Assembly: GCA_012295275.1 (NCBI GenBank)
Contig: CM022673.1
Location: forward strand, 21,700,001-21,764,000
Direction: 5' to 3'
Origin: Chrysomallon squamiferum
Lineage: Eukaryota > Animalia > Mollusca
Length of the DNA: 64,000 nt
Shown here: one piece after another, positions 7,327-23,580 of the stretch
Position numbering within the stretch: the first letter of the stretch is position 1
How the letters are laid out: each line of letters opens with the position of its first letter
Translations under genes and position numbers: made by a program
Notes under the pieces: generated by a model
Seen by the model: the letters and a program-made list of their open reading frames with translations, nothing else
Databases searched by the model: none
Told to the model about the DNA's origin: nothing

Positions 7327-10300
7327 TTACTGTCCAACTCCGGCATTAATAGCAAACATTCGGCAGATGGAACCATAAAACGTTTTCCGAGAAGATGGTC
7401 TTATTTCGTCTTTGCTGTTGGCTAAGAAGTAGTGAATGTTTGAAAAATCTGGGACGTTTCGACTTTTGCAGGGATAGTAAGAGAAACAGTTGCCAGCTAT
7501 ATCAAAAAGCCCAAGGCGATCACCGGTCCGAACAGAAATTCTCTGTGATACGTCAACAGTTACATTTCTTATCAGTCCTGAGAAACACTGAACTGTATTG
7601 CTGCCAATTAGTGTGTAGATCCTGTAATGTATAAACGCAGGAATGTTTAACAACATCTTAGAGATATGTATCTTAAATACTATTTTGATGTCAAAAATAC
7701 TAATAGTTTGATATGGTTTTAGATAGTAGTAATACTTTGTAGGTCCTTTGTAGTAACGAGTAACAAAATCTCAGAGAAATATATCTTAAAGATTAATTAG
7801 ATGTCACAAATACAGCTAGTTTGATAGTGTTTCACATGTAATAATACTTTTATTATGATGATGATGGTGGTGGTTAAAGAAATGTTCTGTAATAAGGCTA
7901 CAAGAGAGGAAAGAGTTTGCAGTAATTCCACGAACTAATAAAATACATTAGCAACAACATACTTATTTATACATATCTTCCCACAAACAGGAAAGCATTT
8001 AAAAGAATTTGATAAACCATTGATAGTATTCTGGCTGGAACTTGAAATAGCGTATTGAGACCACTGAGAGGTTTGATGTTAAGATGTGTGTTTATGTGTT
8101 TATGTGTCTATATATATATACGTGTGTGCGTGTGTCTATATATATATATATATATATATATATATGTGTGTGTGTGTGTGCGTGTGTGTGAGTGTTTGTG
8201 TGTGTCTGTAAAATATGCAGTTGCATACACAATTATATTATTTTATGTTTCTCTGTGAGTGATTAAATTTTGTGTGTATATATTTTAAATGCGTTACATG
8301 TTATTTACAACAACACAGTTATTAAATTGTTTACATGGCTGACGCAGGACGCCACACCTGCAGCTGGACCTCTTCATCACACGTGCAGTAGATCTGCCAG
8401 GAATGGATTTGACCATCTCGAGGTATTAGAAGCTGTTTCGATTCTCCAGTGTAGACTGTCAGGTTAAACTGTGATGTGGTAAATCGATAACGTCCCATAC
8501 GAAAAGTGTTCACGGGTGTTATAACATGAGACAGCGCTGGAAAAAAACAAAACAAGAAATAAATAAAATAAAATAAAAATAAATAAATAAGTAAAAATAA
8601 ATAACCATAAATATATAAAATGATTTTTTTTTTATAAAAAACGAAATAAATAAATAAAATAAAATAAAGAGAAAAAGAGAAAAAACAACAACAAACAAAC
8701 AAAGAAAATAATAAAAGATAAAAGCTGTGCACAGTAAAAAGTTAATTTGTGTAGAATAATTTTTATAAAACGCAAACAGGTATATTTTTTCATTACATTT
8801 CTTTTTTAAGCTAAATTAAATAAATAAATAAGTTTGTGATTTTTGGAAAATTCCTTAGATTATATGACACAGATTTCTTTTCTATTTTATTTTACTTCAA
8901 CAAGATTTTATATTATAGTTGTAATCCAACATGTTGTATTTATCATCAATGGCAAGGTCTGAATGAATACACATTATTTATTATGACTGAACCAAGTTCA
9001 CGACAGTGTGTTTTAAAGTAATGATTTTACATGTACAGACAGGTTCGGATCCAGACAATGCGCCGTTTCTCGTACAGGCTCTAACAAGAGATCCACTCTG
9101 GAGCTTATAGCCTGGATCACATGTCAGCTCAACAATTTCGCCTACACCAAGTGACGTCTTGTTTTCTGTTGTTGCAGCATTTGCCGGAAGTTGTCTTAGT
9201 GGGCAGTGGTTGCCTTTGACAAAGAAAATTAATAATTAAATACGTTAATTTAATACATGAAATTAATAATGATAACTGTTAACTTGCAATAAAATCATTT
9301 ATCTGACAAATTAAAATAATAATACACCGAGATTGAAATTTTTGTAGATATTTTGTAATTATAATGATTATGGTCACGATGATAATAGTAGTGAGTGTAG
9401 AAACAGTAGCATCAGAAGTAGTGTAGTGACAAAAGTAGTGTAGTAGTAGTAGAATAAGTAGCAGCAGCAGTAGAATTAACAATTATTGTAAAATAACTGT
9501 AAAATAAAAAGGGAATATCATACAGATAACAGATGGATATATTACTTGACAGACTGCAAACATCAGCGCCACAAGTGTACGGACAAACGTTGGTTTTTAT
9601 AACAGGGTCTAAGCAGGCTCTCGGGTTTTCATTTAACAGAGTCGAACATTCCTCTTTACGATCTGTGCACTTCATAGGTTCTCCTAAGTAGAAAAAAAAT
9701 ATTTTAAAATTATATATATATATAGAGAGAGAGAGAGAGAGAGAGAGAGAGAGAGAGAGAGAGAGAGAGAGAGAGAGAGAGAGAGAGAGAGAGTTAAATA
9801 TGACTGTTAAATATTGTTAAAGATAGATATATATATATATATATATGTAGCCAGTGTTTAAATCATATTTCGAACTAACATAGTTCGACATGATCCAATT
9901 ATTTAATAGAACCTAGAGGTAAGGTTTTAAGTGTGTGGGGGAATGGCGGTCAGTTCAATTCTTGTGAAAACCGGAATATCAATGTCAATGAAATCGAGGG
10001 TGAACAGCATTTGTTTTGTTGTCGATACTTAGAAATACTGACAATGTTTTGCTTAATTTATTTCAATAATAAATTAATATTATCTGGTTTAATCCAGATA
10101 AAATAATATGAATAAATATTAAAATTGTCTATCATTGTTTTTGTATTTTATTTATTTGTCTTTGCAAAAAGTAAAGAAATGTTGACTACATATACAAAAC
10201 ATATATTTCCTTTTTGGCTATAGTTCAGGCTTTCATCATCATCATCGTAATCATCATCATCATAGACATCGCTATAGCAAATATTTACGGATATTCTCAG

Positions 10301-22300: not shown

Positions 22301-23580
22301 AATAATAATAATAATAATAATAATAATAATAATAATAATAATAATATAAAAATAATAATAACAACAACAACAAAAATAAAATAATTATATGATATATTTA
22401 AATGAAAATTTATGAAGCAAAATGCAAACATATCATCATCATCATCATCATCATTATTATTATTATTATTATTATTATTATTATTATTATTATTATTTTG
22501 TTTCATGAATGTTCATTTATATTTATCATTTATTTATTTTTCTATGAAGTTGTGCACTAAACTTTGTTCTCTTGAGAAGGAAAAGTAGACTGACACAGAA
22601 TGAGATACAGAATTTTTTGAGCTTGAGCATCAGACAAGAAACTATGTACATCTAGAGTGCTGAATCAGAAGAACTATATAATTCAGTGAAGCTATATGAT
22701 TGTTACAGAGTATATCAAAGGCAAATTATGTTTTCATTGAATAAATAAATCTACTTAACCTTCTCGTGTATTTCCTGTTTTATCATGAAAAATAAACGCT
22801 CTGTACATTATTCTTAATGGTAGCTGCAGTGCTGAAGCTTGGCTGAAATGTCATTGTTAATGTGACGATCACCGAGTAGCGCTTAAGTTGTCTTCGCTTA
22901 CCAGTCTGACCACAATCAGCACAGAGTTTACTTTTTCAGAGTTTGCTAAATTTCATTTGCTGACTAACTGGTCAGATGTGGAATGGACTGAAAACACTTA
23001 CCTAGGTTTTTGTCATGACAGTACAAAATAATACCTCCAGGCCAACGCTGCCAGCTTTGATTTGAAACCAGCCGTCTAGATCTGTGATGCAAAGTTTCAC
23101 TCTGTAATATAAACTTTCAGATGTGTATAATATGTATAAATGTATGTGCATACGTATGTATTTACGTATGTATGTATATGTATATGTATGTATGTGTGCA
23201 TATATGTGCGTGTATGTATGTACGTCAGTGGTGTATAGCTATGAAAATTACTACTACATGTACCATTATTATTTTTACTACTGCTATCTTACAGTTGTTA
23301 TCCCCATTTTTCTTATGGTTATAAAAGAACATCAGAACTTCAATATATTAATCTATTTAATCAAATAATTGAAATTTCAGAAAAGTTTAGATTTTTTTTT
23401 TTCATATGAAAACACATGAAAATTTTAAAAGCATACACTATAAATATAAAATCCAGTATTTACACATTAATAGCATTATTTTAATTAGATTGAGAAAAAC
23501 AAACAAACCTGCTGCTGAAAGACATACGGCTCGAAGAAGGAAAAACACAGGACTACAAAGATGAGCGAGTTACGTAGCAT
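7327..23580 (-). CDS. Secreted astacin-family (M12A) mosaic metalloprotease, paralog A, about 1171 aa: signal-astacin-EGF-ApeC-like-CUB-kringle-ShK-like-sushi-C-type lectin-ShK-sushi-unassigned C-terminal domain
   Basis: 25 GT-AG exons that splice in frame (3516 nt): 23509-23580 (signal [13 protein letters not shown]), 23002-23101 ([13 protein letters not shown]), 22143-22269, 21342-21402, 19997-20102 ([13 protein letters not shown]), 19475-19584, 18733-18853, 18036-18170 (EGF), 17322-17576, 16871-17020, 16503-16634 (ApeC-like WP..CP.GF), 16230-16339 (CUB CG..ITSPNYP..Y..N.EC.W), 15781-15887, 15258-15382, 14439-14583, 13936-14063 (kringle CY..CLPW..CRNP..YCDVC), 13408-13551, 12406-12585 (sushi), 11790-11961, 11027-11136, 10350-10457 (CTL CPAGW..CY..WIG), 9546-9683 (ShK), 9031-9213 (sushi), 8335-8536, 7327-7621. 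Exon sizes and phases are mirrored in paralog B. Confidence 0.88.
9723..9792. repeat. (AG)n microsatellite preceded by (TA)n
   Basis: Directly visible. Similar AG or TC tracts lie at about 15650-15757, 24693-24765, 25709-25800 and 53633-53706. Confidence 0.95.
18970..19030. repeat. Near-perfect 24-bp inverted repeat (hairpin) in an intron of gene A
   Basis: TTTGAAGCTATCTAACAATTGTTA (18970-18993) against the reverse complement of 19007-19030, TTTGAAGATATCTAACAACTGTTA: 2 mismatches, 13-nt loop. Confidence 0.8.
20330..21060 (-). mobile_element. Degenerate, internally deleted Tc1-like DNA transposon in intron 4 of gene A (ends approximate)
   Basis: Minus-strand fragments resemble the Tc1 N-terminal HTH ([28 protein letters not shown]) and C-terminus ([21 protein letters not shown]; compare GGHTRY). 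It has stops, frameshifts and an internal 18-bp tandem repeat near 20518-20565. TIRs were not clearly resolved. Confidence 0.7.

What the first reader, a model, noticed from the sequence alone, without database searches (positions are those of the whole stretch)
7327..23580. Unusual secreted mosaic: astacin protease fused to ApeC-like, CUB, kringle, ShK, sushi and C-type lectin modules
Seen: a complete 25-exon ORF with this domain order, repeated in paralog B, with most module boundaries at phase-1 introns. Established: astacin-EGF-CUB and astacin-ShK combinations are known, amphioxus ApeC domains bind bacterial peptidoglycan, and kringle, sushi and CTL are extracellular recognition modules spread by exon shuffling. 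I do not recognise this full combination as a characterised family. Inference: a recognise-and-cleave effector for innate immunity, or for a secretion such as saliva/venom, mucus, egg coat or shell matrix.
Basis: partly seen in the sequence, partly recalled or inferred. Interest (0 to 1): 0.8.

Follow-up and report, generated by a model that had tools for sequence, protein, structure and literature searches.

The report
Mollusc mucus-protease family, eroded variant
This is an intact 25-exon gene for a large multi-module protein of a mollusc-wide family already seen in limpet foot mucus; it likely acts as a secreted, mucus-anchored zinc protease, and this branch is unusual in having lost several hallmarks that its relatives keep.

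Summary
In detail: 25 GT-AG exons give one open frame of 1171 aa, ordered astacin-EGF-ApeC-CUB-kringle-ShK-like-sushi-CTL-ShK-sushi plus a C-terminal domain without a Pfam match; all 10 module joints are phase 1. An inverted paralog B lies at 49563 to beyond 64000.

The architecture is not new. 19 of 35 chosen homologs carry all six main Pfam domains, from gastropods, bivalves and one nemertean. It is in print as limpet mucus protein P-vulgata_14 (PMC7333891) and, by accession, as mollusc ApeC 'group 8' (PMC9585378). Its function is untested.

What is new is the branch. A, B and three Gigantopelta aegis paralogs (52% identical to A) sit on a long stem. They keep the zinc ligands and catalytic Glu, but the Met-turn Met survives in 1 of 5 (41 of 45 relatives), Cys64 in 0 of 5 (41 of 44), and the prosegment is about 10-17 residues. 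The ShK exon appears recently gene-converted between A and B. No spliced RNA was found. Verdict: new variant of a known, uncharacterised kind.

The parts
7327..23580 (-). Gene A, 25 exons, 1171 aa: 23580-23509, 23101-23002, 22269-22143, 21402-21342, 20102-19997, 19584-19475, 18853-18733, 18170-18036, 17576-17322, 17020-16871, 16634-16503, 16339-16230, 15887-15781, 15382-15258, 14583-14439, 14063-13936, 13551-13408, 12585-12406, 11961-11790, 11136-11027, 10457-10350, 9683-9546, 9213-9031, 8536-8335, 7621-7327
   Evidence: end-to-end alignment with three RefSeq models
23509..23580 (-). Exon 1, likely signal peptide (aa 1-24)
   Evidence: hydrophobic N-terminus, no other segment above 1.5 Kyte-Doolittle; no signal-peptide predictor was run
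23072..23101 (-). Very short pro-piece (aa 25-34) ending in a furin-type RSRR site
   Evidence: in the model of P0003 the residue after the site aligns with residue 1 of mature astacin
18733..23071 (-). Astacin-fold catalytic domain (exons 2-7, aa 35-232)
   Evidence: Pfam Astacin E 1.8e-12 and 7.7e-11 in P0001/P0003; model of P0003 vs 1ast Z 18.6, rmsd 2.1, 188 aligned
20058..20090 (-). Zinc-binding motif [11 protein letters not shown] (aa 125-135), followed by the family Glu
   Evidence: three His, catalytic Glu and following Glu invariant in 5 of 5 branch members
19490..19492 (-). Met-turn position (aa 187), Leu in gene A
18036..18170 (-). EGF-like module (exon 8, 6 Cys)
   Evidence: Cys pattern seen in sequence; no Pfam hit
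16503..17576 (-). Divergent ApeC domain (exons 9-11), 6 Cys, no DxED
15258..16339 (-). CUB domain (exons 12-14), 2 Cys
   Evidence: model matches CUB structures, Z 15
13936..14583 (-). Kringle (exons 15-16), 6 Cys
13408..13551 (-). Degenerate ShK-like module (exon 17), 4 Cys
   Evidence: no Pfam hit; short helices in the model; assignment inferred
12406..12585 (-). Sushi 1 (exon 18)
   Evidence: Pfam E 7e-05
10350..11961 (-). C-type lectin-like domain (exons 19-21) without EPN/QPD/WND motifs
   Evidence: model Z 18.8 vs 2vuz
9546..9683 (-). ShK-like module (exon 22), 6 Cys, no Lys-Tyr dyad
   Evidence: Pfam E 0.0064; sequence
9031..9213 (-). Sushi 2 (exon 23)
   Evidence: Pfam E 1.4e-08
7327..8536 (-). 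Unnamed ~160 aa C-terminal domain (exons 24-25), predicted jelly-roll beta-sandwich
   Evidence: no relevant Pfam hit; own profile hits 68 of 169 held proteins, some in tandem copies; model of homolog P0105 Z 10.5/10.4/9.7 to 9jwb_Z, 9d93_Pa, 4ci7_A
49563..64000 (+). Paralog B, 22 exons seen, 47% identical to A over 925 columns, cut by the window end
9557..9678 (-). Likely gene-conversion tract, A side (119 of 122 nt identical to B)
63828..63949 (+). Likely gene-conversion tract, B side

Best explanation
Gene A is an intact member of a mollusc-wide astacin-ApeC-CUB-kringle-ShK-sushi-lectin protein family and likely works as a secreted zinc protease that is held in surface mucus by its non-catalytic modules and would cut proteins of microbes or biofilm caught there. 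Steps: (1) the signal peptide likely sends it into the secretory path (inferred); (2) a furin-type cut after RSRR would remove a 10-residue pro-piece and free the mature N-terminus at the astacin position, so the enzyme would leave the cell without its own latency segment (site shown, cut inferred); (3) three His, a Tyr and the catalytic Glu are present (shown), so zinc binding and catalysis are likely despite the Met-to-Leu change; (4) EGF, kringle, ShK and sushi 2 likely form a compact scaffold, while the astacin, lectin, sushi 1 and C-terminal domains vary most between copies and would set target choice (pattern shown, role inferred); (5) duplication and gene conversion likely diversify the heads while keeping the scaffold alike.
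For: Intact frame and splice sites. In run X1, 13 of 13 listed differences fall outside exons, which are 1277 of 5084 covered bases (p about 0.02, three are clustered). Zinc ligands and Glu are invariant in 5 of 5 where only 33 of 136 columns are. Astacin fold in the model of P0003. A protein with the same domain set was found by mass spectrometry in limpet bulk pedal mucus, and its authors proposed an antibacterial role (PMC7333891, passages). Short ApeC proteins bind peptidoglycan, including amphioxus ACP5, which lacks all DxED motifs (PMC8361754, passages). Met-to-Leu or Ser barely changes MMP-2 activity (PMC1266349, passages). Among the G. aegis copies, identity is 51-55% in astacin and 42-44% in the lectin domain, against 82-93% in EGF and 82-90% in sushi 2. 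Model pTM 0.83 over 1181 aa hints at a compact body.
Against: No activity, ligand or expression data exist here for this gene or branch. The mucus link rests on one limpet protein that shares the domain set; I did not hold its sequence, and Patella homologs are only about 29% identical to P0001. Met-turn changes to Leu, Ala or Ile impaired protease C; Thr and Ala occur in the G. aegis copies. Cys64-Cys84 and the RxDR motif are lost. ApeC lacks 2 of 8 Cys and all DxED; the lectin domain lacks Ca-binding motifs; CUB has one disulfide, so none of the binding modules is shown to bind sugar. The limpet authors' antibacterial role is itself untested.
Confidence: 0.4

Rival explanations
1. An active protease whose targets are the animal's own mucus or matrix proteins (turnover, release of adhesion, larval attachment), not microbes.
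For: Presence of the limpet protein in bulk pedal mucus fits this equally. CUB, EGF and kringle are typical matrix-protease modules (general knowledge). ApeC and Astacin families are linked to oyster attachment in PMC10225672 (passages), though not as one protein. Microbe-binding motifs are eroded.
Against: Fast divergence of catalytic and lectin domains between copies and extra copies are more typical of genes facing variable outside targets.
Confidence: 0.25
2. In this branch the astacin domain is a zinc-binding but inactive or nearly inactive pseudo-protease, and the protein serves as a binding or cross-linking scaffold.
For: Joint loss of the Met-turn Met (4 of 5), Cys64-Cys84 (5 of 5) and nearly all of the prosegment: a dead enzyme needs no latency. 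Stem of 1.82 changes per column.
Against: Pseudopeptidases of clan M12 lose His or Glu and typically keep the Met (PMC11266112, passages); this branch shows the opposite pattern. Glu and three His are kept in 5 of 5.
Confidence: 0.2
3. A digestive, salivary, venom or egg-coat enzyme.
For: Astacins serve such roles in other animals (PMC9848320, abstract and passages).
Against: No Lys-Tyr dyad in the ShK module. The family is common in filter-feeding bivalves and grazers.
Confidence: 0.1
4. A decaying or silent duplicate.
For: Eroded motifs in many modules; no spliced RNA contig in three RNA runs is compatible with it but is no test.
Against: 1171 open codons across 24 canonical introns; differences avoid exons; full-length counterparts in G. 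aegis.
Confidence: 0.05

Closest known systems
P-vulgata_14, Patella vulgata pedal-mucus protein (Kang et al. 2020, PMC7333891; passages read)
   Same: [quoted passage not shown]
   Different: Its sequence was not held here, so orthology is untested. Patella homologs found here keep Met-turn, Cys64/84 and an 8-Cys ApeC (P0013).
Mollusc ApeC-containing proteins, 'group 8' (Li et al. 2022, PMC9585378; passages and part 2 of the supplement read)
   Same: Complex proteins with over ten domains; accessions of my homologs P0005 and P0012 and of a Patella vulgata protein are listed beside the Group 8 label (group limits read from page layout).
   Different: The three G. aegis proteins closest to A are not in that paper's supplement; their ApeC is below Pfam detection. 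The paper reports no orthologs outside Mollusca, yet a nemertean protein has the same domain set (P0027).
Gigantopelta aegis XP_041366610.1, XP_041365174.1, XP_041365798.1
   Same: End-to-end alignment at 52% identity, same modules, same losses in the astacin, ApeC and CUB domains.
   Different: Uncharacterised models; they group together apart from A and B, so they expanded separately.
Astacin family M12A (crayfish astacin, BMP1/tolloid, meprin; PMC9848320)
   Same: Fold, HExxHxxGxxH plus family Glu, Tyr two after the Met position, Cys42-Cys198 pair.
   Different: No ExxRxDRD, no SIMHY Met in A, no Cys64-Cys84, no FxGDI, prosegment about 10 residues against the 34-486 reported.
Short-form ApeC proteins (amphioxus ACP1/2/3/5, oyster CgACP1, snail BgACP1)
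   Same: ApeC domain.
   Different: They are small lectins without a protease; here ApeC is internal, shorter (173 aa), with 6 Cys and no DxED.

Membership tests
Mollusc astacin-ApeC-CUB-kringle mosaic family (P-vulgata_14 type / ACP group 8) | Domain set and order astacin, ApeC, CUB, kringle, sushi, CTL, ShK, sushi | tested here: met
   19 of 35 chosen homologs hit all six main Pfam families
Mollusc astacin-ApeC-CUB-kringle mosaic family (P-vulgata_14 type / ACP group 8) | Near full-length homology to listed members | tested here: met
   P0001 (52% to A) hits XP_009047393 at E 1e-101 and XP_034311325 at E 3e-88 over more than 1000 residues; both are in the paper's list
Mollusc astacin-ApeC-CUB-kringle mosaic family (P-vulgata_14 type / ACP group 8) | Presence in mucus | not testable with these tools
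   no RNA holder listed; no spliced contigs
Astacin M12A | HExxHxxGxxH zinc motif with family Glu after it | tested here: met
   (P0002 has Ala-Gly spacing intact, Glu kept)
Astacin M12A | Astacin fold | tested here: met
   predicted model of homolog P0003: Z 18.6, rmsd 2.1, 188 of 200 to 1ast; gene A itself was not folded
Astacin M12A | ExxRxDRD motif | tested here: not met
   absent in 5 of 5 branch members; also eroded in most relatives (3 of 45 by a strict pattern, many keep a partial RD)
Astacin M12A | Met-turn methionine (SxMHY) | tested here: not met
   Leu in A; Met, Thr, Thr, Ala in B and P0001-3; Met in 41 of 45 relatives; Tyr kept in 50 of 50
Astacin M12A | Disulfides Cys42-Cys198 and Cys64-Cys84 | tested here: not met
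   first pair kept; Cys64 in 0 of 5 against 41 of 44 relatives
Astacin M12A | Prosegment of 34 residues or more with FxGDI aspartate switch | tested here: not met
   about 10 residues in A, B, P0003 and 17 in P0001 (P0002 lacks its N-terminus); FxGD-like motif in only 3 of 45 relatives too
Astacin M12A | Zinc-dependent endopeptidase activity | not testable with these tools
   needs an assay
ApeC domain (PF16977) | Profile match | tested here: met
   below Pfam cut-off directly; E 1.2e-23 with a profile of 32 homolog regions in which Pfam finds ApeC (31 of 35 scanned)
ApeC domain (PF16977) | Eight cysteines and three DxED motifs | tested here: not met
   6 Cys and 0 DxED in A; 36 of 44 relatives have 8 Cys, 43 of 44 have no DxED
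ShK channel toxins | Lys-Tyr dyad | tested here: not met
   absent from exon 22 sequence; dyad as described in PMC7333891
Calcium-dependent C-type lectins | EPN or QPD and WND motifs | tested here: not met
   none in A or B; fold itself is met
Galactose-binding-like / PHR / DUF4082 jelly-roll domains (C-terminal domain) | Fold and family match | tested here: inconclusive
   Z 9.7-10.5, rmsd about 3.6, to several jelly-rolls; PHR Z 6.8; no Foldseek hit under E 0.001; Atlas named clusters only 0.86-0.87

The most novel reading that the evidence does not exclude
A branch of Gigantopelta-like snails has rebuilt an astacin into an active metzincin that needs neither the Met-turn methionine, the cleft disulfide nor a latency prosegment, mounts it on a rigid scaffold with an unnamed jelly-roll binding domain, and diversifies it in multi-copy arrays to control bacteria on its surfaces.
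Probability: 0.25. Interest if true: 0.6.

Novelty: new variant of a known kind. Interest (0 to 1): 0.36.

Why it matters
The family is old, multi-copy and spread across molluscs, yet its only functional hint is one limpet mucus proteome, so it is a good candidate for how molluscs police or remodel their mucus. This branch offers a natural test of how far astacins tolerate loss of the Met-turn, the cleft disulfide and the prosegment. The C-terminal domain is a mobile animal module with no Pfam family. None of this overturns current understanding.

Tried and rejected
No genome was held for the window. A word-based search with the ApeC exon found nothing (0 of 17 candidates), nor did a search for shorter relatives of the P0003 astacin-EGF region (0 of 416), so the width of the branch beyond A, B and G. 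aegis is open. No RNA holder was listed; three RNA runs gave no splice joints on 15790-21900 or 49400-63600, only short repeat matches and one unspliced 173-base piece: no evidence either way. The careful tree did not finish; the tree quoted is the quick one (35 rows chosen from the hit list, SH-aLRT only), and the join of the branch with P0008 is a long-branch meeting that I do not trust. Literature searches: astacin+apextrin+kringle 0 papers; Gigantopelta+astacin 0; astacin+kringle+C-type lectin+mucus+gastropod 0; ApeC+astacin 4 papers, none shown to describe this protein (passages read for one); the limpet paper surfaced only through ApeC terms. No ApeC structure paper was found. A scaly-foot snail proteome paper has no ApeC or kringle in its text or three searchable supplements, one cut and one unreadable; PMC13425148 and PMC7895826 have none in the main text. 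The Met-turn mutagenesis paper of Tallant et al. was not held. The 2021 ApeC survey cited by these papers was not seen and may list this architecture. Earlier scan findings: three look-ups returned nothing. Rejected: separate genes, chance ORF, venom toxin, categorically new architecture.
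Full report
Observation. Reading the region and joining exons by coordinate gave 25 exons on the - strand from 23580 to 7327, 24 of 24 introns GT-AG, 1171 codons and one terminal stop. Of the introns 15 are phase 1, 4 phase 0 and 5 phase 2; all 10 module joints are phase 1. Exon 17 (4 Cys) and exons 24-25 have no relevant hit. Paralog B lies on the + strand from 49563, with 22 exons before the window ends, 47% identical to A over 925 columns.

Relatives. A profile of the kringle exon from A and B found 3 proteins among 42 candidates, all Gigantopelta aegis models. 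They align with A from end to end at 52%, which supports one gene. The source is therefore likely a gastropod related to G. aegis (inferred; the window is about 30% G+C, against 37.22% for G. aegis). A full HMMER search with P0001 gave 1382 hits at E 0.001 or better and listed 150. I scanned 35 of these, chosen as the best hits that were not cubilin-like repeats: 31 hit ApeC, 29 hit Astacin and ApeC, and 19 hit Astacin, ApeC, CUB, Kringle, Sushi and Lectin_C together. Of 20 looked up, 18 are molluscs (Haliotis, Lottia, Patella, Babylonia, Physella, Bradybaena, oysters, Mya, Mactra, unionids, Pinctada), 1 is a nemertean and 1 has no name. A profile made from 32 distant ApeC regions scores A at E 1.2e-23 and B at 1.5e-15, so the ApeC call stands although Pfam misses it in P0001-3.

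In print. PMC7333891 (passages) lists P-vulgata_14 with peptidase M12A, ApeC, CUB, kringle, two sushi, C-type lectin-like and ShKT. It was found by mass spectrometry only in bulk pedal mucus and proposed, untested, to be antibacterial; it is not among the five with a specific in situ pattern. PMC9585378 (passages and supplement part 2) sorts 130 mollusc ApeC proteins into nine groups and calls groups 8 and 9 highly complex; accessions of P0005 and P0012 and a Patella vulgata protein stand beside the Group 8 label, while the three G. aegis proteins are absent. I could not see the figure with the architectures. The combination is thus recorded but not characterised.

What is special here. A, B and P0001-3 form one side of a branch (SH-aLRT 100, length 1.82; quick tree of 35 rows). 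Against the astacin hallmarks of PMC9848320 (abstract and passages), they keep three His, the catalytic Glu, the family Glu and the Tyr. The Met-turn Met is present in 1 of 5 (Leu in A; Thr, Thr, Ala in G. aegis) against 41 of 45 relatives; Cys64 in 0 of 5 against 41 of 44 (P0028 was dropped for lack of a zinc motif). The prosegment is about 10 residues in A, B and P0003 and 17 in P0001, against 34-486 in the review; the zinc motif starts at residue 124-131 against a median of 219. Loss of FxGD and erosion of RxDR are family-wide, not special. ApeC has 6 Cys against 8 in 36 of 44 relatives; DxED is absent in 43 of 44 relatives as well. The AlphaFold2 model of P0003 (48 rows; pLDDT 85, pTM 0.83) matches 1ast with Z 18.6, and its residue 34, just after the basic site, aligns with astacin residue 1. 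Gene A itself was not folded.

C-terminal domain. A profile of it hits 68 of 169 held proteins, with three to five copies in some. The Atlas gives unnamed animal clusters at 0.95 and named families only at 0.85-0.87. The model of homolog P0105 (pLDDT 90) is a beta-sandwich, nearest to a cyanophage capsid chain, a mycobacteriophage tail-tip chain and the lectin-like domain of Cwp84 (Z 10.5, 10.4, 9.7); Foldseek gave nothing under E 0.001. Carbohydrate binding is a guess.

Copies. A and B face outwards around an inverted pair of hnRNP A-like genes, so the window looks like an old inverted duplication. In the ShK exon A and B share 119 of 122 bases; fourfold sites differ at 2 of 17 against 100 of 147 in the other 21 exons (Fisher p 9e-6), which points to recent gene conversion. 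In run X1 many B exons lie under about two to five times the depth seen in most of A and carry clustered differences (19 of the 40 shown, of 71, are exonic; 11 of 18 codons change the residue), a hint of further B-like copies, though contig depth is a poor measure. X1 also lacks one base at 62117, near the end of B exon 19, which would give B the same intron phase as A; the window may hold an assembly error or a shifted copy there. For A, 13 of 13 listed differences are intronic.

Mechanism. Shown: intact gene, module order, catalytic residues, basic site, faster divergence of astacin, lectin, sushi 1 and C-terminal domains than of EGF, kringle, ShK and sushi 2. Inferred: secretion, furin maturation, activity, residence in mucus, microbial targets. 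Met-turn changes are tolerated in MMP-2 and harmful in protease C (PMC1266349, passages); inactive M12 homologs usually lose His or Glu and keep Met (PMC11266112, passages). This favours an active enzyme but does not prove it. Against a peptidoglycan role, the ApeC and lectin motifs are eroded; for it, ACP5 binds without DxED. No expression evidence was obtained.

Verdict. Real, well built, and a divergent variant of a described but untested mollusc family. Interest 0.36.

Noticed in passing
window 29150-31900 (+) and about 38880-43030 (-): Inverted pair of hnRNP A1/A2-like genes (Gly-rich N-terminus, RRM hits; 73-80% nucleotide identity in exons), nested between genes A and B: the window looks like an old inverted duplication centred near 36 kb.
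   Followed up: partly
window 9557-9678 (-) and 63828-63949 (+): Likely gene-conversion tract inside the ShK exon; both copies also have a long (CT)n run just upstream of this exon.
   Followed up: yes
window 62117: One extra base in B exon 19 relative to run X1; as the window reads, B needs a different donor and acceptor to stay in frame.
   Followed up: partly
window 49400-63600: Raised depth and clustered exonic differences in run X1 suggest more B-like copies in the genome.
   Followed up: partly
window 3886-5994 (+): 702-codon open frame, low complexity, no meaningful Pfam hit; probably one large exon of a neighbouring gene.
   Followed up: partly
window 45800-47600 (-): Broken frames that resemble a non-LTR retrotransposon reverse transcriptase/RNase H remnant (recognised from recall in the translation; not scanned on that strand).
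   Followed up: no
window 19741-19779 and about 20300-21080: Repeat elements inside introns 5 and 4 of gene A; run X1 shows a 219-base deletion at 20309-20529.
   Followed up: no
window 28000-44000: CpG counts fall to 7-19 per 2 kb over the hnRNP pair against 30-55 over genes A and B, as expected if housekeeping gene bodies are methylated and these secreted-protein genes are not (inferred).
   Followed up: no
P0027 (Tubulanus polymorphus XP_074650471.1): A nemertean protein with the full domain set, although PMC9585378 reports no orthologs of mollusc ApeC groups in other phyla.
   Followed up: partly
P0081, P0144, P0004, P0009, P0010: The unnamed C-terminal domain occurs in three to five copies per protein and also without the other modules; it deserves its own family model.
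   Followed up: partly
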